A program made the translations under genes and the position numbers. This document shows positions 1 through 7,866 of a stretch of 32,159 nt of DNA, one piece after another; the first letter of the stretch is position 1; each line of letters opens with the position of its first letter. Source of the DNA: Oxynema sp. CENA135 (GTDB lineage Bacteria > Cyanobacteriota > Cyanobacteriia > Cyanobacteriales > Laspinemataceae); assembly GCF_016632315.1 (NCBI RefSeq), contig NZ_JAEOXH010000002.1, positions 1-32,159 of the forward strand. Direction: 5' to 3'. Under the pieces are notes generated by a model. That model made no database searches and had not been told where the DNA came from. It was given only the letters and a program-made list of their open reading frames with translations.

Positions 1-290
1 CCTTCTCCACCGTCTAGGGTGTCGTTGTCGTTACCGCCGTCGAGGCTGTCGTCGCCAACGCCTCCGTTGAGGATGTCATTGCTGTCGCCACCGGAAATCG
101 TATCGTTACCGTCGTTTCCGGAGAGACTGTCGTCACCTGCATTGCCGACGATCGCATCGTCATTGTCACTACCCGCGATCGTGTCGTCCTCATTATCTCC
201 GATGAAGGGCGCAATGACATTCAAGTTAAAGGGCGTGCTAACCGTAGCGTTGTTCGGATCCGTTGCCACAATCAGCAGGGCAAGGGTTCC

Positions 291-480
291 GACATCCCCT
301 TCGGCGGGGGTGCCGCTAAAGGCTCCCGTTGCCGGGTCGAAGGTCAGCCAACTGGGTAAGGGATCGCCGTTGGCTAAGGTCGCCGTATAGGTGAGCGGGT
401 CGCCGTCGGGATCGCTGAAGGTTCCGGCTGGGATGGCGAAGTTAAATGCTTCTTCGGCTGTGGCTGAAGTATCGGCGATC
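291..480 (-). repeat. Copy 1 of a 190-bp tandem duplication with 300-bp period. It encodes the repeated cadherin-like domain segment.
   Basis: 291-480 is base-for-base identical to 591-780 (gacatccccttcggcgggggtgccgctaaaggctcccgttgccgggtcgaaggtcagcc...tggctgaagtatcggcgatc). Divergence resumes immediately outside (481 ggggttgcga versus 781 gcgctatcga). Confidence 0.9.
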
Positions 481-590
481 GGGGTTGCGACCACAGGGGA
501 TTCGTTGGGAACGTCGCTGACATTCAGGGTGAAGTTGTCACTGACTGAATCAGTCCCGTCGGAGGCAGTGACGAGAATATCGAGACTGCC

Positions 591-780
591 GACATCCCCT
601 TCGGCGGGGGTGCCGCTAAAGGCTCCCGTTGCCGGGTCGAAGGTCAGCCAACTGGGTAAGGGATCGCCGTTGGCTAAGGTCGCCGTATAGGTGAGCGGGT
701 CGCCGTCGGGATCGCTGAAGGTTCCGGCTGGGATGGCGAAGTTAAATGCTTCTTCGGCTGTGGCTGAAGTATCGGCGATC
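591..780 (-). repeat. Copy 2 of the 190-bp perfect tandem duplication inside the adhesin gene.
   Basis: Identical to 291-480. The spacing of 300 bp corresponds to one ~100-aa domain unit. Confidence 0.9.
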
Positions 781-1510
781 GCGCTATCGAGAGTGGGTGG
801 ATCTTGAGCCGGATCGATCGTAATCGTGAAGGTTTGAGCTGCCGAGGTATCGACCCCACCATTCGCCGTCCCGCCACTGTCTTGCACGACCACATCAAAA
901 GTAGCCGTACCGGAAGCATCTGCAGCAGGGGTGTACGTCAGGTTGCCACTCGCATCAATTGCCGGAGTGACGTCAAACAAACTGGGGTCGCTGATATTGC
1001 TGACCGTATAGGTAGCGGTTTGGGTCGCTTCGTCTGTCGGTCCGGGGTTGAAGGCGGTGACCCAACCATTGACTGTTTGTGCGCCAGCATCTTCGGTGAT
1101 GGTCGGTGGATCGGTTGCCGTGAAACTCGGTTGGTCGTTAACCGGATTGATATTAATGATTGCATTGGCGGTTGCAGTTTCGACGGCGTTGTTTTGAACC
1201 GAAACCGTCAACGTTTGTGATGCGGGGGGTGTATCGGAAGTGTTCTCGTACTGGAGCTTCTGGGCAATGCTAGAAATATGGGTGTCATCGACAATCGCAG
1301 GCGGCGGCACTGCCTGGGTGACCACCACATCATCAATGAAGAGCTGAGCTCCTGCGACTGTACCCCCACTAAAGTCAAAGGTACCGGAAACGAAGACAAA
1401 CTTATACTGACCTTGCTGGGTAATAGTCACCGTCTCCGTCGCCCAAGTAGTGGAGGCAGCACCACTATCGCCAGTTTCGTCGAGAATGGTGAGGATATCC
1501 GCTAGATAAA

Positions 1511-2878
1511 ACTTACCCAAACTTACCCATCAAGTCTGAAAGCTTGATGAACAATACGTTTGAGTCGATTTTACTTCCTGCTTCTACCAAGGGAGTTGGC
1601 TCGCTCTTGTCCACAGGCGTTAATTTGGCCGTAGCTCGACCTATTTTTTCCAGATTTTTGGCTGCGTTTAAATCTCTGTCTATTTTGAGATGACAATGGT
1701 CGCAACCAAACAGTCTTTCTGATAAGAGTAATGAGTCTTTAATGCTTCCACAATTAGAACAGATTTTACTAGATGGATAAAATCTGTCTACGATTATTAG
1801 TTGTGACCCATATATTTGGCTCTTATATTCCATCTGCCGTCGGAATTCATAAAACCCCATATCGGCGATAGATTTAGCTAGTTTATGATTGGCCATCATG
1901 CCTGATACGTTTAAGTCTTCTATCACATTAACGGCGTGGTTCTTGCATAATTGTGAGGTCAACTTATGTAACGTATCTTTTCTGAGATTAGCGATTTTCC
2001 GATGGAGTTTTTGGACTTGAAGCTGGGACTTTTTTCGATTGGCAGAGCCGAGACTTTTTCGGCTAACTTGTCTTTGGAGTCTAGCTAGTTTATTTGAATG
2101 CTTTTTATATGCTTTTATTCCTTCTATACTTACTCCCGTTGATAAGGTGGCAAGCGCTTTTATCCCCAAATCTATCCCCACTACATCTGTTTTCTTATCG
2201 GTGGGGGTCACGTTGACATCTATTTTAAACGAAATAAACCAGCGATCTGCCTCTCGACTAATCGTCACATTTTTGGGTTGATAATTCCCCGATAATCTTT
2301 CATAAGTTTTCAGAATTCCAATGACAGGAACCTGAATTTTATTTTCAGATAATATTTTTATGGTTCCATCTAGAGTAAAGCTGTCTTGTCTGCCTTTTTT
2401 CTTAAATTTAGGTCTAGATTTCTTTTTTTTAAAGCAATCTTGCCACGCCTGGGCGAGATGTCTGAGAGCGTATTGAGGGGCACACTTAGAAACTTCGTAA
2501 TACCACAGATTCTCTGGTTTTACTAACTTATTTAACCACTTATGTAAGTCAATAGCTGTGGGAAATTTGATTTTTTCATCGGGACTACAATCGGCATTAT
2601 GTGATAAAATTCCTAAACACAACCCGTGACCCCAATTGTAAGCATGACGCGCCACTCCCGCATGACGAGCGAGTTTTTGTCGTTGGGTAAGATTAACTTT
2701 AAGTTGTGTTTTAAACCCTAATAACATGGAGTTAAATGCTCTACGCTACCAATGGCGCCTAACTAGAGCTAATTTTACCACCACTGATGACTTTATTAAC
2801 AATTCAGTTTCTAGAAATATTGGTCAATGCTCCGGGAATTTCTCACGATTTGAGTAAGATTGGGTAAGATTGGGTAAG
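1511..2878 (-). mobile_element. IS200/IS605-family insertion sequence of the TnpB-only (IS1341-like) type. Boundaries are approximate.
   Basis: The segment contains a single TnpB ORF. The ~115 bp between the tnpB start (2727) and the flank is too short for a tnpA. It is strongly AT-rich (e.g. ttttatatgcttttattccttctatac) and lacks GCGATCGC sites, whereas the flanking host DNA is GC-rich and HIP1-dense. The flanks carry imperfect inverted copies of CTTACCCAA(A/T)CTTACCC: 1511-1529 acttacccaaacttaccca and 2854-2878 gtaagattgggtaagattgggtaag. The flank adjacent to the LE reads ...aatcTTAC, which is an IS608-like TTAC target/TAM. Confidence 0.7.
1513..2727 (-). CDS. tnpB: TnpB (OrfB_IS605), an RNA-guided RuvC-like nuclease of the IS200/IS605 family.
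   Basis: 404-aa ORF. RuvC-I is [15 protein letters not shown], RuvC-II Glu lies in [11 protein letters not shown], the zinc finger is CSNCGS...CDHCH, and RuvC-III is [10 protein letters not shown]. It has a Lys/Arg-rich linker. The composition is atypical for this genome. Confidence 0.9.
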
Positions 2879-3754
2879 TTTTCGGCTTCTGTAGTTAACC
2901 CCCAAGCTGAATTCGATAAAGCCGCCCTGATAGTTCGTCCCGCCAGAAAAGGTGATATCGCTGTCTACGATCGTGGCGGGGTCTTGTTCGTTGTAAGACG
3001 AATCATCGAGACTGGTAATCGTCGGCGCAAACGCACCCGCATAAGCATTGAGGGTGGGTTCGTCGAAGGCTAAAGCTGCCTTCAACAAACGGCGAGTTGT
3101 ATTGACAACGGTCTCTAGCTGCCAGTTGGCACCGCGTTGCTGACTCCCGACTCGGGTCTGAGACGCGGCCACGGCAGCTCCAGTGAACTGGGCGAATTGC
3201 CCGACAAACTTGGAACCGAGAACCCCGGCAGCGACGTTACAACCGTAGAGGAGAATGTTGTCGGCTTTCCACTGTTGTAGATCGGTGGCATAGCGGTTGA
3301 GGTTGCCTAAACTCAGTTCGCTATTGCCGAGATAGAGGGTGCCTGGGCTACCGTGGGAGACGATGTGGAGGGATTCGAGATCGGGGATATCACGCAGGAT
3401 CTCGGTAATCTGTTCGACTCCATCGCGGTTGCGATCGAGGATGACTACTTGGGTTCCAGGAACGACCCCTGCAGCGAGCATCTGGCAATCGTCAACCGTA
3501 GGATCGAGGATTGCGAGTTGATGACGGGAAGTAGCACGTACCGATTGACTGAGAATGCTCTTTTCGATGAATTCTTCTTGCATTGGTTGAACTATGACTT
3601 GAGAAAGGGTTTGTGTTGCGTGCGATCGCCCTAAACTCAACCCCAAGGAAAAATTCGCAGACTTAGCAATCCTGTCTTTCATGAAGTCAGGAAGTGCTTT
3701 AAAGAAAATCAACAATTCACAGCGAAAAACTTCCACAAACTCATCCGTCAACAA
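2843..3754 (-). CDS. DUF4347-domain N-terminal portion of the giant adhesin-like protein, truncated by a stop inside the IS flank repeat. The start is uncertain: TTG at 3754, or ATG at 3682 or 3583.
   Basis: Translation contains HQLAILDPTVDDCQMLAAGVVPGTQVVILDRNRDGVEQITEILRDIPDLESLHIVSHGSPGTLYLGNSELSLGNLNRYATDLQQWKADNILLYGCNVAAG. This is the characteristic DUF4347 N-terminal domain of very large cyanobacterial cadherin/RTX proteins. The ORF ends ...KLTQSYPILLKS*, and the stop lies within the cttacccaat repeats at the IS boundary. Confidence 0.7.
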   Translation of the reverse strand: MLTDEFVEVFRCELLIFFKALPDFMKDRIAKSANFSLGLSLGRSHATQTLSQVIVQPMQEEFIEKSILSQSVRATSRHQLAILDPTVDDCQMLAAGVVPGTQVVILDRNRDGVEQITEILRDIPDLESLHIVSHGSPGTLYLGNSELSLGNLNRYATDLQQWKADNILLYGCNVAAGVLGSKFVGQFAQFTGAAVAASQTRVGSQQRGANWQLETVVNTTRRLLKAALAFDEPTLNAYAGAFAPTITSLDDSSYNEQDPATIVDSDITFSGGTNYQGGFIEFSLGVNYRSRKLTQSYPILLKS

Positions 3755-4899
3755 ATGAAGCCCTAGTTAACGGTGAAGGCTATTAGAAGGTTGGCTATGG
3801 TTGGGGAACCATTTACAATAAAAGAGCAGTCTAATTGCGAAAGCTTTAAGTTGGCAAAACACTTAAATCTTACAAAACAGATGACTCAAGATAGGAGCGT
3901 CAACAAACGAGAATACTACAATGAAAGTCTTCAGTCAAGAGTAACTAAAGAGTTCGATCTTATCCCTGTAAGATCGCACCAACTTTAAATCGACATCACT
4001 CAACTTGTAACAACGAAACTGACCTCTGTTCATTGAGTTAGGTTTGGATAGATTTGGTGCTTTTACAATCATCAAACCAGATTTTGGTCTACCCCATCGA
4101 TTTAACTAGTAAGTTATGTGTTGCTGAGAGGATGCAACATTTACTTTCGCTTCCGATTCCCACTTGAGATAGCGGGCAATCAATCGCGACCTCGTTCATT
4201 CTACTGAGGCAATTAAGACAGTCACCTCAGTAAATCTACGTAAATCTTTCAAAAATTCTTCCTGTCAAGGGATTCAATAACACTAAAATGCATTTTTTTA
4301 AAATAAACAAATAAAAGATTTAGATCGTCAAAACCAGCAAAGCCAAATAGCTTTTACCCATTCTACCATAACGCAATAGATTATTTTACGATTGCAAATT
4401 ATATGCAAAAATATTTTTTGTCGATCGGTTTTTACAAAAAAATCATCTAAACTTTATTAAATTTTTAAATATTTAGTTGATTTTTGATAGTGTTTATGAA
4501 TTGCCTTGTACTGTAGGGGGTAACCCCCTAATGATGGTGCAGTTCACCTGTATCTGGCAAAGATATCTATAGCCATCCTCAATTGGTTGTAAAATATAAG
4601 GGTTTTAGGGACACGGGAATGCCTTGTCTTTAAAGGAATTTGGCGATTTTCCAAAATCGATCTCAGATTCAACAGATTGAGGACGGCTATAGATCGATTC
4701 AATGGCTATAGTAATCTTATTTTACTGATAGTATAAATAAATACAAAGTATTAATAACTAAGTTTACCATTTCAATCCACCAATTTAACCTATCGTTCCT
4801 GGGGAAATGAGAATTTACTCACCGAATCTCATACTTTGGCTTACTAGAGAATTCAATGTAACTTTCGATCCCGTTATTATTTGGACGAATTTAAAAGGA

Positions 4900-5556
4900 T
4901 TATATATCTTCCGATCGCTCCTTTTCTAATACCTCCAGCAAACAACGTAAAATTAAATAAGTAGAAGTCGCACCGGGGTCTTGATGTCCCGCACTTCTTT
5001 CGCCGAGGTAACTGGCTCGTCCTTTTTTAGCCACGAGCACAATCGTCTTTTTCATCCCTTCTTCTGTGGCTAAAACGGCTTCGCGCAAGGCATCTACGAG
5101 ACTGCGATTTTGGGCGATCGCCGTCGTGTAAGTTTCCACGGCTGGAGACAAGGCATCGAGCATTGTTTTATCGCCGAGATTGGCTTTTCCTCGTTGAATG
5201 ACGCCGTCTTTTCCCGCTTGTAGTAAGTTGGCTAAATCTTGAGCCGTCAGTTCTTGTTTTCCGGCTACTGCACTACTGGCTCGTAAAAATAAGGTACCGT
5301 ACAACGGGCCACTCGCTCCACCGACGGAAGAAATGAGGGTCATGGCGATGGTTTTTAAAAGAGTGCCAATGTCACTATTCCGATTTTGAACAAGTTGGGC
5401 GATCGCCTTTTTAAAACCGCGATCCATATTGATACCGTGGTCTGCATCTCCGATCGCCGCATCGAGTTCGGTTAAATAGTCCTTGTTTTCTTCGATCGTT
5501 TCGGCAATTTTTTTAAACCAGTCAATAATTTGAATTTGAGTAACTTTTTCTTCCAT
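4900..5556 (-). CDS. dhaL: Dihydroxyacetone kinase subunit L (ADP-binding subunit).
   Basis: 218-aa protein with LDAAIGDADHGINMDRGF (the DhaL nucleotide-binding motif) and an all-helical DAK2-like sequence. It lies 77 bp downstream of dhaK on the same strand. Confidence 0.85.
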   Translation of the reverse strand: MEEKVTQIQIIDWFKKIAETIEENKDYLTELDAAIGDADHGINMDRGFKKAIAQLVQNRNSDIGTLLKTIAMTLISSVGGASGPLYGTLFLRASSAVAGKQELTAQDLANLLQAGKDGVIQRGKANLGDKTMLDALSPAVETYTTAIAQNRSLVDALREAVLATEEGMKKTIVLVAKKGRASYLGERSAGHQDPGATSTYLILRCLLEVLEKERSEDI

Positions 5557-5633
5557 ATTCTAGTAAGATGTATGAGTAACATTGATAATTTATGCCGCAC
5601 AATTCACGATGGTTCACAAGGCGATCGTCCGGT

Positions 5634-6701
5634 TTACCAATGCAATCCCGCCGTTTTGACGGGAGCATCCCAAAGATCGACCATTTCTTCATCGACTTTA
5701 AGCAAAGTAATCGAGCATCCTTGCATGTCCAAAGAGGTAATATAAGGACCGATCAAATTGCGAACGATCGCGATTCCTTTGGCTTCGCAAATTGCGGCGA
5801 GTTTGCGATAAACGACGTACAATTCCGATAGCGGCGTACCTCCCATACTGTTGACGAAGGCGATCGCGCGATCGCCCTTTTCTAACGGCGGATCGGTTAA
5901 TTGAATTTCGCTCCATTCTCCGCGATCGAGATCCCATTCTCGAACGGTACGCCGATAATTACGATCTTCGAGAATAGAAAGGGTCAGTAATTCGGTAATT
6001 TCATCGGCGGATTTGAGCGCCATCCGTTCCCGTCCCGGTTCTCCATGAATCCCGATCCCCAGTTCCATTTCTCCCTCGCCGAGTTGGAAGGTCGGGGAGC
6101 CTTTCGCCGGAACCGTACACGAAGTGAGAGCGATGCCCATGCTGCGTCCGTTGAGATTGACTTTGCGGCACAAATTGGCCAATTGTGAGAGATTGTAGCC
6201 GCGATCGGCTGCCGCACCGCAAATCTTTTCCGCTAACACCGTCGTTCCCACCCCGCGCCGTCCTTGGGTATAGAGGGAATCTTTCACCGCTACATCGTCA
6301 TCGATGAGGAGATTGAGAACGGGTATATTTTCGGCGATCGCCAATTCCGCAGCCATCTCGAAATTCATCACGTCGCCGCTATAGTTTTTCACGATATTCA
6401 GGACTCCAGCGCCGCCATTGACCATTTTTGCCGCCTCTAGCATCTGGTCTGGCGTCGGCGAGGTAAACACTTCCCCCGGACACGCCGCATCGAGCATTCC
6501 CGGACCGACAAATCCGGCGTGCATCGGTTCGTGTCCGCTTCCCCCGCCAGAGACCAGCGCGACTTTACCCCGCACCGGAGCGTCGGCGCGGTAAACAAAG
6601 TGTGGCTCGAAACGAACGCGAATCAGGTCGCGGTGAGCCAGCGCCATCCCTTCCAAGCTCTCACGTACGAAGTCATCCGGGTTGTTAATCAGCTTTTTCA
6701 T
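5634..6701 (-). CDS. dhaK: Dihydroxyacetone kinase subunit K (Dha-binding subunit).
   Basis: 355-aa protein with [20 protein letters not shown], the DhaK/DAK1 substrate-binding motif, including the His that forms a hemiaminal with Dha. Its length and order relative to dhaL are typical. Confidence 0.9.
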
Positions 6702-6855: not shown

Positions 6856-7866
6856 TCATGCAAGATTGTTGTAAAAACAAAGATTTAAGTAATTCTTAAC
6901 TTCGGTTGCTAATCTTTTTGCGAATAACGGCGGGACGGCATTGCCAATTTGATTGTATTGATTTTCCTCAGAACCTTGGAACCTAAACCAATCGGGGAAA
7001 CTTTGCAGGCGCGCGCCTTCGCGAACGGTGAGGCGGCGGCGGCGTCCGTCGGGTAAACGAATTCTGAGCATGTCTCCCGTGGCGGCGCCGAGGTTGCGAC
7101 AGGTGACCGTTCGTGCGGGACGATCTAAATGCAGATCGCGGGGTCGGACACAGTTCGAGGCGCGTTCGTATTTTTCGATATATCGGTCCATGCTGGAGGT
7201 GAGAAATTTGGCATTTTTAGGAATGGTTAACGTTAAGTTTCCCAAGGCTTCGCCAGCCGTGTAGGGATGGCGATCGTGGCTTTTTGACGGCCATTGCCAA
7301 CCGCCTCTATGCGCAATACAAAAAAGTCTTTGGCGGCGTTGGGGAACGCCGTAATCGCTGGCGGTTAAGACTTGATATTCGACTTGATAATCTAATTGTT
7401 TGAGAGTTTGTACGATTTCTTGAAAGTAAGTTTTATTGCGATAAAGCATTCCTCTAACATTTTCAAAAATCGCAATGTTTGGGCGATCGCGCCGAACGGC
7501 ATTGAGAAAAATGGGGAAGCCGTCGCGGCTATCTTTGAGTCCTTTTTGATGTCCGCTTACACTAAATGGTTGACAGGGTGGACCGCCGATAATGACGGTC
7601 GCTCCCGATTGTAATTCGGTTTCGGGCGTGAGTGTTATTTGATGACAAGGACGGTTTAAATTATGACGGTAAGTTTGACAGGCTTCGGCAGATCTTTCGT
7701 AACCGATGGTTTGAAATCCGGCAGCTTCAAATCCGAGGGCAAATCCGCCACATCCGGCGAATAAGTCAATAACTAAAGCTTGAGAGTTGCCAGGCGGAGG
7801 AAGGGTTAATTCTGTTTCGAGATAGTCCAGATAATTTAGGCGAGTTAGGGAGATGCTGGAGGTCAT
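6856..7866 (-). CDS. DNA (cytosine-5)-methyltransferase of the Dcm/M.HpaII-like family. The longest ORF extends to 7947, but the likely start is the ATG at 7866.
   Basis: Motif I is DLFAGCGGFALGF. Motif IV is GGPPCQPFSVSG (catalytic Cys). Motif VI is IFENV. Motif VIII is QRRQRLFCIA. Motif X is QIGNAVPPL. The 27 extra N-terminal residues in the long ORF (MRDRPRCPTLKL...) look like read-through from upstream. Confidence 0.85.
   Translation of the reverse strand: MTSSISLTRLNYLDYLETELTLPPPGNSQALVIDLFAGCGGFALGFEAAGFQTIGYERSAEACQTYRHNLNRPCHQITLTPETELQSGATVIIGGPPCQPFSVSGHQKGLKDSRDGFPIFLNAVRRDRPNIAIFENVRGMLYRNKTYFQEIVQTLKQLDYQVEYQVLTASDYGVPQRRQRLFCIAHRGGWQWPSKSHDRHPYTAGEALGNLTLTIPKNAKFLTSSMDRYIEKYERASNCVRPRDLHLDRPARTVTCRNLGAATGDMLRIRLPDGRRRRLTVREGARLQSFPDWFRFQGSEENQYNQIGNAVPPLFAKRLATEVKNYLNLCFYNNLA

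What the first reader, a model, noticed from the sequence alone, without database searches (positions are those of the whole stretch)
1..3754. Giant DUF4347/cadherin-like/RTX adhesin gene split in two by a TnpB-only IS200/IS605 element
The DUF4347 N-terminal ORF at 2843-3754 terminates inside the element flank. A 509-codon start-less frame at 1-1529 carries exactly the domains that normally follow DUF4347 in these giant proteins: dystroglycan-type cadherin-like repeats, then RTX GGxGxDxL repeats. The two pieces are on the same strand, in the correct N-to-C order, and separated only by the IS. This looks like a recent insertional inactivation of a surface adhesin/S-layer-type gene.
Basis: partly seen in the sequence, partly recalled or inferred. 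Interest (0 to 1): 0.6.

Follow-up and report, generated by a model that had tools for sequence, protein, structure and literature searches.

The report
Transposon-split, partly deleted adhesin gene
A large cyanobacterial surface-protein gene is broken by a 1.4-kb TnpB-carrying insertion sequence that sits exactly where about 600 bases of the gene are missing, so this is an ordinary dead gene rather than a clean, reversible insertion.

Summary
The coordinates and domains hold. On the minus strand there is a DUF4347 ORF (3754-2843), a 404-aa TnpB gene (2727-1513), and an open start-less frame (1529-1) with tandem-95/He_PIG/RTX repeats. Both gene pieces match the same homologues in N-to-C order, so they are one gene.

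Three points need correcting.
- **Element limits.** The element is 1499-2901 (1403 bp), defined by 98% identical copies in Oxynema aestuarii and a related genome. It is not 1511-2878.
- **Family.** It is a tnpA-less derivative of the IS607 (serine-recombinase) family, not a classical IS200/IS605 element. It has GGG...CGG termini, no target duplication and 10-nt subterminal repeats. In 14 of 83 relatives an IS607-type tnpA sits directly upstream of tnpB.
- **Not a clean insertion.** All ten homologues that span the junction carry about 200 further residues (about 598 bp in the closest one) between the two pieces. The missing stretch removes one small domain and about 70% of a CBM-like beta-sandwich.

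Removing 1403 or 1400 bp does, and 1401 bp does not, but the product would still lack those residues.

Verdict: an IS-interrupted pseudogene with an IS-associated 0.6-kb deletion. Ordinary, low novelty.

The parts
2902..3583 (-). 5' fragment of the surface-protein gene. The likely true start is the ATG at 3583 (M58 of the listed ORF), followed by the DUF4347 domain and a linker ending ...GGTNYQGGFIEFSL(G). The mechanically listed ORF starts at the TTG at 3754 and runs on into the element to the TGA at 2845-2843.
   Evidence: Pfam DUF4347 E 2e-50. Homologues start at the position equivalent to M58. blastn gives 73% nt identity to L081 6066-6656, and homology is readable up to the junction.
1499..2901 (-). 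Insertion sequence of 1403 bp: GGGTTAAC...ATCTAGCGG. It is a tnpA-less (TnpB-only) derivative of the IS607 family. If the leading GG or GGG is target-derived, as in IS607, the DNA actually added is 1401 or 1400 bp (to 2899 or 2898).
   Evidence: These exact 1403 bp are shared without gaps at 98.1-98.6% with three copies at unrelated loci: L160 in Oxynema aestuarii CP051167, and L161 and L162. Ends are homologous in 84%- and 62-79%-related copies. GC is 0.39 against 0.54-0.57 in the flanks.
2848..2882 (-). Left-end subterminal repeats: AAAA CTTACCCAAT CTTACCCAAT CTTACTCAAAT, three direct 10-11-nt units. The first 22 nt form the left arm of the apparent terminal inverted repeat.
   Evidence: the repeat finder families D2, I1 and I4; sequence read. 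The equivalent repeats occur in relatives.
1508..1531 (-). Right-end subterminal repeats: GATGGGTAAGTTTGGGTAAGTTTT, two units in inverted orientation relative to the left end. They overlap the last tnpB codons and the 3' part of the predicted guide-RNA scaffold.
   Evidence: Inverted repeat I1, 22 nt, 95% complementary. Conserved in all relatives.
1513..2727 (-). tnpB, 404 aa, apparently intact. It has RuvC-type acidic motifs at GIDLG (D186), IEDLN (E270) and DRDLNAA (350-352), and two CxxC pairs (C323/C326, C342/C345).
   Evidence: Pfam OrfB_IS605 E 5e-28, Cas12f1-like_TNB E 1e-21, HTH_OrfB_IS605. phmmer hit to ISDra2 TnpB (8bf8, 8exa, 8h1j) at E 2e-40 over residues 7-365. 98% identical to Oxynema aestuarii TnpB P0151. 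Motif positions.
1499..1666 (-). Predicted guide-RNA (omega RNA) scaffold at the 3' end of the element, overlapping the end of tnpB.
   Evidence: RNAalifold on 11 family members gave 38 pairs. With one further hairpin, 44 pairs were counted: 96.4% of cells paired, 11 pairs with changes on both sides, 0 of 500 shuffles reaching this, and slid controls at 28-45% paired. No Rfam family matched. The identification as omega RNA is by analogy, not tested.
1483..1498 (-). Inferred guide-specifying flank (ATATCCTCACCATTCT), immediately 3' of the right end. It is also the first gene-derived bases of the 3' fragment.
   Evidence: Inference from the published TnpB/omega-RNA arrangement, where the donor joint is TAM plus target (bioRxiv 10.1101/2023.11.20.567912). 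Homology to L081 begins at the first base after the right end.
1..1498 (-). 3' fragment of the same gene, open to the window edge. In order it holds the last ~57 residues of a CBM-like beta-sandwich, tandem-95/cadherin-like repeats, two near-identical He_PIG repeats, then RTX nonapeptide repeats. The gene continues beyond position 1.
   Evidence: Translation; Pfam. 71% nt identity to L081 7284-7947. P0004, an Oxynema sp. CENA135 'partial' protein, is essentially identical.
1498..2902 (.). Deletion junction. About 598 bp (about 200 codons) present in all homologues between ...EFS(L/V) and I(E/V)TIL... are absent, and the element occupies exactly this point.
   Evidence: The flanks map to L081 ~6685 and 7284. 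The protein alignment shows a 204-column gap. The segment is present in P0104, P0059, P0022, P0121, P0123, P0124, P0125, L081, L082 and L083. It is not found elsewhere in the window.

Best explanation
One gene for a large DUF4347-headed, repeat-rich, RTX-type surface or secreted protein has been inactivated. A 1.4-kb TnpB-only insertion sequence of the IS607 lineage sits in it in the same orientation, exactly at the junction of a ~0.6-kb deletion of coding sequence.

**Shown**
- The two fragments are collinear parts of one gene type.
- The element's exact limits.
- Its kinship with IS607-type elements.
- The absence of about 200 codons.
- The absence truncates a CBM-like beta-sandwich domain.

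**Inferred**
- The element inserted at a (R)GGG/GG target by a serine transposase supplied in trans, since it has no tnpA of its own.
- The adjacent 0.6 kb was then lost in an element-associated event. This could be homologous recombination between two nearby direct copies, or an aberrant one-ended recombination.
- TnpB and the 3' guide RNA serve only the element's own maintenance.

**Consequence**
- The upstream piece can at most give a ~246-residue DUF4347 stub with an 18-20-residue element-encoded tail.
- The downstream piece has no native start.
- Even precise excision would not rebuild the original protein.
For: **One gene**
- The N flank matches L081 6066-6656 at 73% and the C flank matches L081 7284-7947 at 71%. 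Both are on the same strand and in the same order.
- L082, L083 and P0104 carry both parts in single uninterrupted ORFs.

**Element limits**
- The 1403 bp are shared at 98% with three copies at unrelated loci.
- Conserved ends GGG...CGG occur in 21 copies.

**IS607 kinship**
- A MerR-HTH plus Resolvase tnpA lies directly upstream of tnpB in 14 of 83 relatives.
- Those elements have homologous termini.
- Published IS607 behaviour is a GG target, GG termini, no duplication and subterminal repeats (PMC6188088). A TGGG target that doubles as the TAM is published for a related element (bioRxiv 10.1101/2023.11.20.567912).

**Deletion**
- 10 of 10 junction-spanning homologues have the extra ~200 residues.
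- The ~195-residue module also occurs as a unit inside Halieaceae flagellins at 48% identity.
- It models as a CBM4/CBM22-like beta-sandwich. The window keeps only its last ~57 residues.

**Element intact**
- The TnpB ORF is full length with the acidic triad and zinc-finger cysteines.
- The 3' RNA structure is supported by covariation.
Against: - No allele from the same or a sister species was available, neither an empty site nor an undeleted gene. The deletion is therefore inferred from homologues of at most 73% nt identity.
- Removing 1403 or 1400 bp leaves the two pieces in frame. That would also fit a pre-existing in-frame shorter allele, although an in-frame result has a one-in-three chance anyway.
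- The left flank has G, not the A seen before GGG in 18 of 20 other copies.
- The mechanism of the deletion is not shown.
- I could not check reads, so an assembly collapse of two copies is not excluded.
- The gene's 3' end is outside the window.
Confidence: 0.78

Rival explanations
1. Clean, recent insertion. The element simply dropped into an otherwise intact gene, and removing it restores the full-length adhesin.
For: Both fragments are free of further stops. Removing the family-defined 1403 or 1400 bp gives one open frame of 783/784 codons.
Against: All ten homologues spanning the junction have ~200 residues here that the window lacks. The break falls inside a beta-sandwich domain.
Confidence: 0.03
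2. The Oxynema lineage already carried a shorter in-frame allele lacking the ~200 residues. The element later happened to insert at that junction, which contains a G-run that IS607-type elements favour.
For: The flanks are in frame after removing 1400 or 1403 bp. The junction would read TTGGGGG|AT, which is a (G)GG target.
Against: It needs the element to land exactly on an older deletion junction among many G-run sites. The deletion leaves a 57-residue remnant of a ~195-residue domain, which is unlikely to be a maintained variant.
Confidence: 0.06
3. Assembly artefact. The real genome has two copies of the 1.4-kb element flanking the 0.6-kb segment, and the assembler collapsed them into one copy and dropped the segment.
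For: The element is multi-copy in related genomes: the P0151 cluster has 20 member sequences, and two loci occur in one JGI genome. The source contig appears to end in the RTX repeats just beyond position 1, since P0004 is 'partial'. That suggests the assembly breaks at repeats.
Against: The missing segment was not found in any protein attributed to Oxynema, although pseudogene pieces would not be translated. The contig passes through the element instead of breaking at it. I could not examine any read data.
Confidence: 0.08
4. The two fragments come from different genes: either two adjacent genes, or two paralogues joined by recombination between element copies.
For: Such giant-protein genes are often multi-copy. 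The rest of the genome was not searchable here.
Against: Both fragments best match the same homologous genes, in order, on one strand, only ~598 bp apart in L081. Their identities are similar, at 73% and 71%. DUF4347 homologues do not end at ~300 aa.
Confidence: 0.04

Closest known systems
IS607 family insertion sequences (IS607, IS1535, and the Clostridium botulinum IStron element), which carry a serine-recombinase TnpA plus TnpB
   Same: GG at both termini and a G-run at the target. No target-site duplication. Several short subterminal repeats at both ends. tnpB followed by a structured 3' RNA reaching the right end. Relatives of this TnpB (62-67% identical) carry a MerR-HTH/Resolvase tnpA directly upstream and have homologous termini.
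   Different: This copy and its closest relatives (75-98%) have no tnpA, so it cannot move by itself. The subterminal repeats at the two ends form a 22-nt, 95% inverted repeat, whereas IS607 elements are described as lacking terminal inverted repeats. It has no group I intron. The apparent target/TAM is (A/G)GGG rather than TGGG.
IS1341-type TnpB-only elements, filed under IS200/IS605 in ISfinder. NCBI uses the label 'IS200/IS605 family accessory protein TnpB'.
   Same: A single tnpB gene of ~400 aa in a ~1.4-kb element, multi-copy in cyanobacteria.
   Different: The IS200/IS605 hallmarks were not found here or in relatives: a Y1 HUH transposase, and subterminal hairpins recognised as single strands. 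The ends are of IS607 type instead. What I say about IS1341 rests on my own knowledge, not on a tool result.
ISDra2 TnpB, the structurally characterised RNA-guided nuclease (PDB 8bf8, 8exa, 8h1j)
   Same: Homologous over residues 7-365 (E 2e-40). The RuvC acidic motifs and zinc-finger cysteines are conserved.
   Different: ISDra2 belongs to an IS605-type element with a Y1 TnpA and a TTGAT target. Nuclease activity, TAM and guide of the window protein are untested.
DUF4347-headed giant 'tandem-95 repeat'/RTX surface proteins of cyanobacteria and other bacteria
   Same: The same order of parts as L082, L083, P0104 and L081: DUF4347, linker, CBM-like beta-sandwich, tandem-95 repeats, then further repeats.
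   Different: The window copy lacks ~200 residues, is interrupted by the element, and is truncated by the window edge. No function has been shown for this protein family.

Membership tests
IS607 family | Serine-recombinase TnpA (N-terminal MerR-like HTH, Resolvase catalytic domain) encoded in the element | tested here: not met
   Only tnpB lies between the ends, and tblastn with a relative's TnpA finds nothing in the window. tnpA is present directly upstream of tnpB in 14 of 83 related loci. This copy is therefore a non-autonomous derivative, not a complete member.
IS607 family | GG dinucleotide at both transposon termini and at the target, with no target-site duplication | tested here: met
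   The left end starts GGG and the right end finishes CGG in the window and in 20 other copies. The flanks share no duplication. Criterion taken from PMC6188088.
IS607 family | Multiple subterminal repeats at the ends (TnpA binding sites) | tested here: met
   Three direct 10-11-nt units at the left end and two inverted units at the right end. Binding by a TnpA was not tested.
IS607 family | Transposition through a circular double-stranded intermediate made by TnpA | not testable with these tools
   This needs an excision or integration assay with a cognate TnpA.
IS200/IS605 family (classical, Y1 transposase) | Y1 HUH transposase TnpA in the element or in close relatives | tested here: not met
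   No tnpA in the window element. A motif scan for the IS200-type signature in six frames of 83 related loci and the window found none. This is a crude test.
IS200/IS605 family (classical, Y1 transposase) | Subterminal imperfect hairpins at both ends instead of repeats, and a conserved 4-5-nt target 5' of the left end | tested here: inconclusive
   The ends are built of direct and inverted 10-nt repeats. The only conserved hairpin lies inside the predicted RNA scaffold. A conserved (A/G)GGG does precede the element, but that fits IS607 equally well.
TnpB / OMEGA RNA-guided nucleases | RuvC-like domain with D-E-D residues, a zinc-finger insertion, and homology to characterised TnpB | tested here: met
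   Pfam OrfB_IS605 and Cas12f1-like_TNB. ISDra2 TnpB at E 2e-40. D186, E270, DRD350-352 and two CxxC pairs.
TnpB / OMEGA RNA-guided nucleases | Structured guide RNA encoded at the 3' end, reaching the right end, with the guide read from the flank | tested here: inconclusive
   A conserved structure with covariation spans 1666-1499. There is no Rfam match. Transcription, processing and guide use are untested.
DUF4347 giant repeat/RTX surface proteins | N-terminal DUF4347 followed in the same polypeptide by cadherin-like/tandem-95 repeats and RTX repeats | tested here: met
   Met for the gene as reconstructed from its two fragments and for uninterrupted homologues. The window copy itself is interrupted and incomplete.

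The most novel reading that the evidence does not exclude
The 0.6-kb loss is a direct product of the element's own machinery. It could be a one-ended or intramolecular GG-to-GG recombination by an IS607-type serine transposase acting in trans, or faulty repair after TnpB cleavage. This locus would then be a natural footprint of 'adjacent deletion' by IS607/TnpB elements, a reaction not described for this family. The in-frame outcome would leave an excisable, domain-deleted adhesin variant.
Probability: 0.1. Interest if true: 0.45.

Novelty: new member of a known kind. Interest (0 to 1): 0.2.

Why it matters
It matters mainly for annotation.
- The DUF4347 ORF and the 'partial Ig domain protein' here are two remnants of one dead gene. 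They should not be counted as functional adhesins.
- The element should be filed with IS607-type TnpB-only derivatives rather than IS200/IS605.
- The locus gives exact ends, an (A/G)GGG target motif and a covariation-supported 3' RNA for a cyanobacterial TnpB family. That is useful to anyone mining TnpB/guide-RNA pairs.
- It shows that 'remove the IS and check the frame' can pass while a domain is still missing.

None of this changes current understanding of these systems.

Tried and rejected
- **Exact-protein look-ups.** Look-ups of the window's TnpB, DhaL and P0004 in the contig index found nothing. I could not see the source genome beyond the window, its other element copies, or the rest of the gene.
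- **TIR as element limits.** I first took the 22-nt inverted repeat (1508-2882, 1375 bp) as the limits. Related copies share 19 more nt on the left and 9 more on the right, and removing 1375 bp leaves a stop.
Removing 1511-2878 leaves a stop after 294 codons.
- **Search for a same-species allele.** I looked for an empty site or an undeleted gene. Protein searches and the one metagenome scan gave nothing closer than 68-70% amino-acid identity. The protein database appears to list only proteins up to about 815 aa, so an intact giant orthologue, for example in O. aestuarii, could have been missed.
- **Empty/filled site pair.** I looked for such a pair among the 83 fetched loci, to fix the boundary to the base. 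None was found. The added DNA therefore remains 1400, 1401 or 1403 bp.
- **Missing segment elsewhere.** It is not elsewhere in the window or in an Oxynema protein.
- **IStron idea.** A group I intron would make the insertion harmless, because the element is co-oriented with the gene. Rfam gave no intron at gathering or at E<=1, and there are only ~170 nt between the left end and tnpB.
- **Y1 transposase.** A motif scan found none in relatives.
Full report
**1. What is in the sequence**

All relevant features are on the minus strand.
- ORF listing gives a 303-codon ORF at 3754-2843 and a 404-codon ORF at 2727-1513.
- The frame 1529-1 is open for all 509 codons and runs off the window. The other two frames are full of stops.
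- Pfam assigns DUF4347 to the first ORF (E 2e-50, residues 80-240).
- The second ORF hits OrfB_IS605, Cas12f1-like_TNB and HTH_OrfB_IS605, so it is TnpB.
- The start-less frame hits He_PIG (two copies, E 5e-42), Big_9, Cadherin_4/5 and RTX HemolysinCabind.
- GC content is 0.39 between the gene pieces and 0.54 and 0.57 in them.

Homologues start at the position of M58, so the true start is probably the ATG at 3583.

**2. Exact limits of the element**

The ends first looked like a 22-nt, 95% terminal inverted repeat (1508-1529 and 2861-2882) built of 10-nt CTTACCCAAT-type units. Related copies show that the element is longer.
- A genome scan with TnpB returned 345 relatives, of which 80 were kept.
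- Copies in an Oscillatoriales MAG (84% aa) and in Crocosphaera (75-79%) share 19 more nt at the left (GGGTTAACnACAGAAGCCG) and 9 more at the right (ATCTAGCGG). Beyond those points their flanks differ.
- The last protein search found TnpBs 96-98% identical in Oxynema aestuarii and in a 6.3-Mb JGI genome.
- Their loci share exactly 1403 bp with the window (1499-2901) at 98.1-98.6% identity without gaps. One copy carries a 54-bp insertion.

The element is therefore GGGTTAAC...ATCTAGCGG at 1499-2901. The DUF4347 ORF ends 54-59 nt inside it. The first ten codons of the downstream frame, including the TTG that NCBI used as the start of P0004, are element sequence.

**3. What kind of element**

- The window copy has no transposase gene.
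- In 14 of 83 related loci (TnpB 52-67% related) a ~200-aa ORF lies directly upstream of tnpB. It has MerR-type HTH and Resolvase domains, which is the IS607-type serine transposase.
- Five identical copies in Scytonema tolypothrichoides define the ends of such a complete element: GGGCTGACAACAGAAG...AAGTTTTGTAGAGCGG. These are visibly homologous to the window's ends.
- Published work states that IS607 inserts at a GG, has GG at its termini, makes no target duplication and carries multiple subterminal repeats (PMC6188088).
- For a clostridial IS607-type element, the transposase target TGGG is also the TnpB TAM, and the exact boundary is ambiguous between adjacent GGs (bioRxiv 10.1101/2023.11.20.567912).
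- In this family the base before GGG is A in 18 of 20 other copies. It is G in the window and in L001.
- A crude motif scan found no Y1 (IS200-type) transposase in any related locus.

I conclude that this is a non-autonomous, TnpB-only derivative of the IS607 lineage. The label 'IS200/IS605' is the usual database name for TnpB, but it does not describe this element's ends.

TnpB itself looks intact.
- It aligns with ISDra2 TnpB over residues 7-365 (E 2e-40).
- It keeps the acidic motifs (D186, E270, DRD350-352) and two CxxC pairs.
- The last ~170 nt of the element fold into a conserved structure across 11 family members. 44 pairs were counted, with 96.4% of cells paired, 11 pairs changed on both sides, 0 of 500 shuffles as good, and slid controls at 28-45%.
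- This fits a guide-RNA scaffold ending at the right end, but transcription and function are untested and Rfam has no match.
- There is no group I intron, so the element is not an IStron that could splice out of the host mRNA.

**4. One gene or two**

- A search with an in-silico joined query found P0004 from Oxynema sp. CENA135, essentially identical to the downstream fragment and annotated 'partial'.
- It also found homologues carrying both parts in one polypeptide: P0104, P0059 and P0022.
- The closest homologue (L081, 68-70% aa) is called as two proteins, P0023 and P0015. Its DNA shows a single frameshift in a G-run, most likely an assembly error, and is otherwise continuous.
- Two metagenomic loci, L082 and L083, have the whole architecture in uninterrupted ORFs of more than 800 codons.
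- At the DNA level the window's N flank matches L081 6066-6656 (73%) and the C flank matches L081 7284-7947 (71%), on the same strand and in the same order.

DUF4347 proteins of this type do not stop at ~300 aa, and the fragments match the same gene.

**5. Not a clean insertion**

- In the alignment, every homologue spanning the junction has about 200 residues between ...EFS(L/V) and I(E/V)TILxxTG that the window lacks. This holds for P0104, P0059, P0022, P0121, P0123, P0124, P0125, L081, L082 and L083.
- In L081 the gap is about 598 bp.
- Homology resumes at the very first base after the right end, and is readable up to the last bases before the left end.
- The missing part is not elsewhere in the window. 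No protein attributed to Oxynema contains it.
- The missing stretch is not a dispensable linker. Residues equivalent to F(P/E)NG(N/D)F...[10 protein letters not shown] form a ~195-residue module that also occurs, at 48% identity, as the central insert of Luminiphilus/Halieaceae flagellins.
- An AlphaFold model of P0121 (mean pLDDT 75, mostly above 80 across this module) shows a beta-sandwich there. Foldseek matches it to CBM4, CBM22, CBM11 and CBM16 modules, a hyaluronan-binding module and a spirochaete flagellar sheath protein.
- The window retains only the last ~57 residues of this module, meaning the strands from about residue 251 of P0121. It also lacks the small domain before it.

**6. 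The frame test**

| Bases removed | Coordinates | Result |
|---|---|---|
| 1368 | 1511-2878 (reader) | stop codon after 294 codons |
| 1375 | 1508-2882 (inverted repeat only) | stop codon |
| 1403 | 1499-2901 (whole shared element) | one open frame, ...FSLDILTIL... |
| 1400 | 1499-2898 (GGG treated as target/TAM, by analogy with the TGGG case) | one open frame, ...FSLGDILTIL... |
| 1401 | 1499-2899 (crossover at the first two Gs) | stop codon |

I found no empty/filled pair to settle the last base. An in-frame result has a one-in-three chance, and either way the product would lack the ~200 residues.

**7. Most likely history**

- The element sits exactly on the deletion junction. This is what an element-associated deletion predicts, and it would be a coincidence otherwise.
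- I therefore favour insertion at a G-run by a serine transposase supplied in trans, followed by loss of the adjacent 0.6 kb. The loss could come from recombination between two nearby direct copies or from an aberrant recombination event.
- These steps are inferred, not shown.
- Alternatives are a pre-existing short allele, an assembly collapse of two copies, and a paralogue chimera. They are listed with the results that would decide between them.
- Recency is plausible, because neither fragment has further stops, but it is untested.

**8. Verdict**

The finding is real, and its core reading is right: one surface-protein gene interrupted by a TnpB-only insertion sequence. It is wrong on three points: the element limits, the family assignment, and the claim that only the element separates the pieces. 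The locus is an ordinary IS-disrupted, partly deleted pseudogene. Its modest value lies in better annotation and in a well-delimited cyanobacterial IS607-type TnpB element with a supported 3' RNA structure.

Noticed in passing
window 289-490 and 589-790: Two He_PIG repeat units of the 3' gene fragment are 98% identical over 202 nt, spaced 300 bp apart. This suggests a very recent tandem duplication or gene conversion within the repeat array.
   Followed up: no
P0126-P0144, P0129; query residues 97-291: The ~195-residue CBM-like beta-sandwich of these cyanobacterial DUF4347 proteins also forms the central insert of ~470-aa flagellins of Luminiphilus/Halieaceae (Gammaproteobacteria), at about 48% identity. 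A surface-exposed module appears to be shared between an adhesin-like protein and flagellin.
   Followed up: partly
L162 2631-2684; L001 ~1900-2010; L007 ~3700-3760: Three related element copies carry small insertions (54 to ~110 bp) at the same spot, the loop of a predicted guide-RNA hairpin (GAGCC|GACTCC) near the 3' end of tnpB. Those in L162 and L001 are G-rich, contain CTCTACTTGGGGAGACCCCAAGACCGC, and share sequence with each other. This may be a small mobile repeat that targets this hairpin.
   Followed up: no
L008 (Crocosphaera watsonii WH 8501), 3587-5108: This copy's tnpB match stops at residue 362, and the right end lies ~1.4 kb further on than in sister copies. Another insertion probably sits inside the element.
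   Followed up: no
L081 ~7050-7100: The closest homologue is annotated as several separate proteins (403, 469, 207, 736... aa). At least the first split is a single frameshift in a G-run of an otherwise continuous gene, which looks like a long-read assembly error.
   Followed up: partly
window 3755-4899: A 1.1-kb AT-rich stretch (GC 0.26-0.41) lies between the adhesin gene start and the dhaL/dhaK-like genes (4900-6701, minus strand). It has no ORF over ~70 codons and no Rfam hit at gathering threshold.
   Followed up: no
one search hit table: All 120 listed homologues of this giant-protein query are 815 aa or shorter. The protein search therefore seems not to return very long proteins, and an intact orthologue in a sister genome could have been missed.
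   Followed up: no
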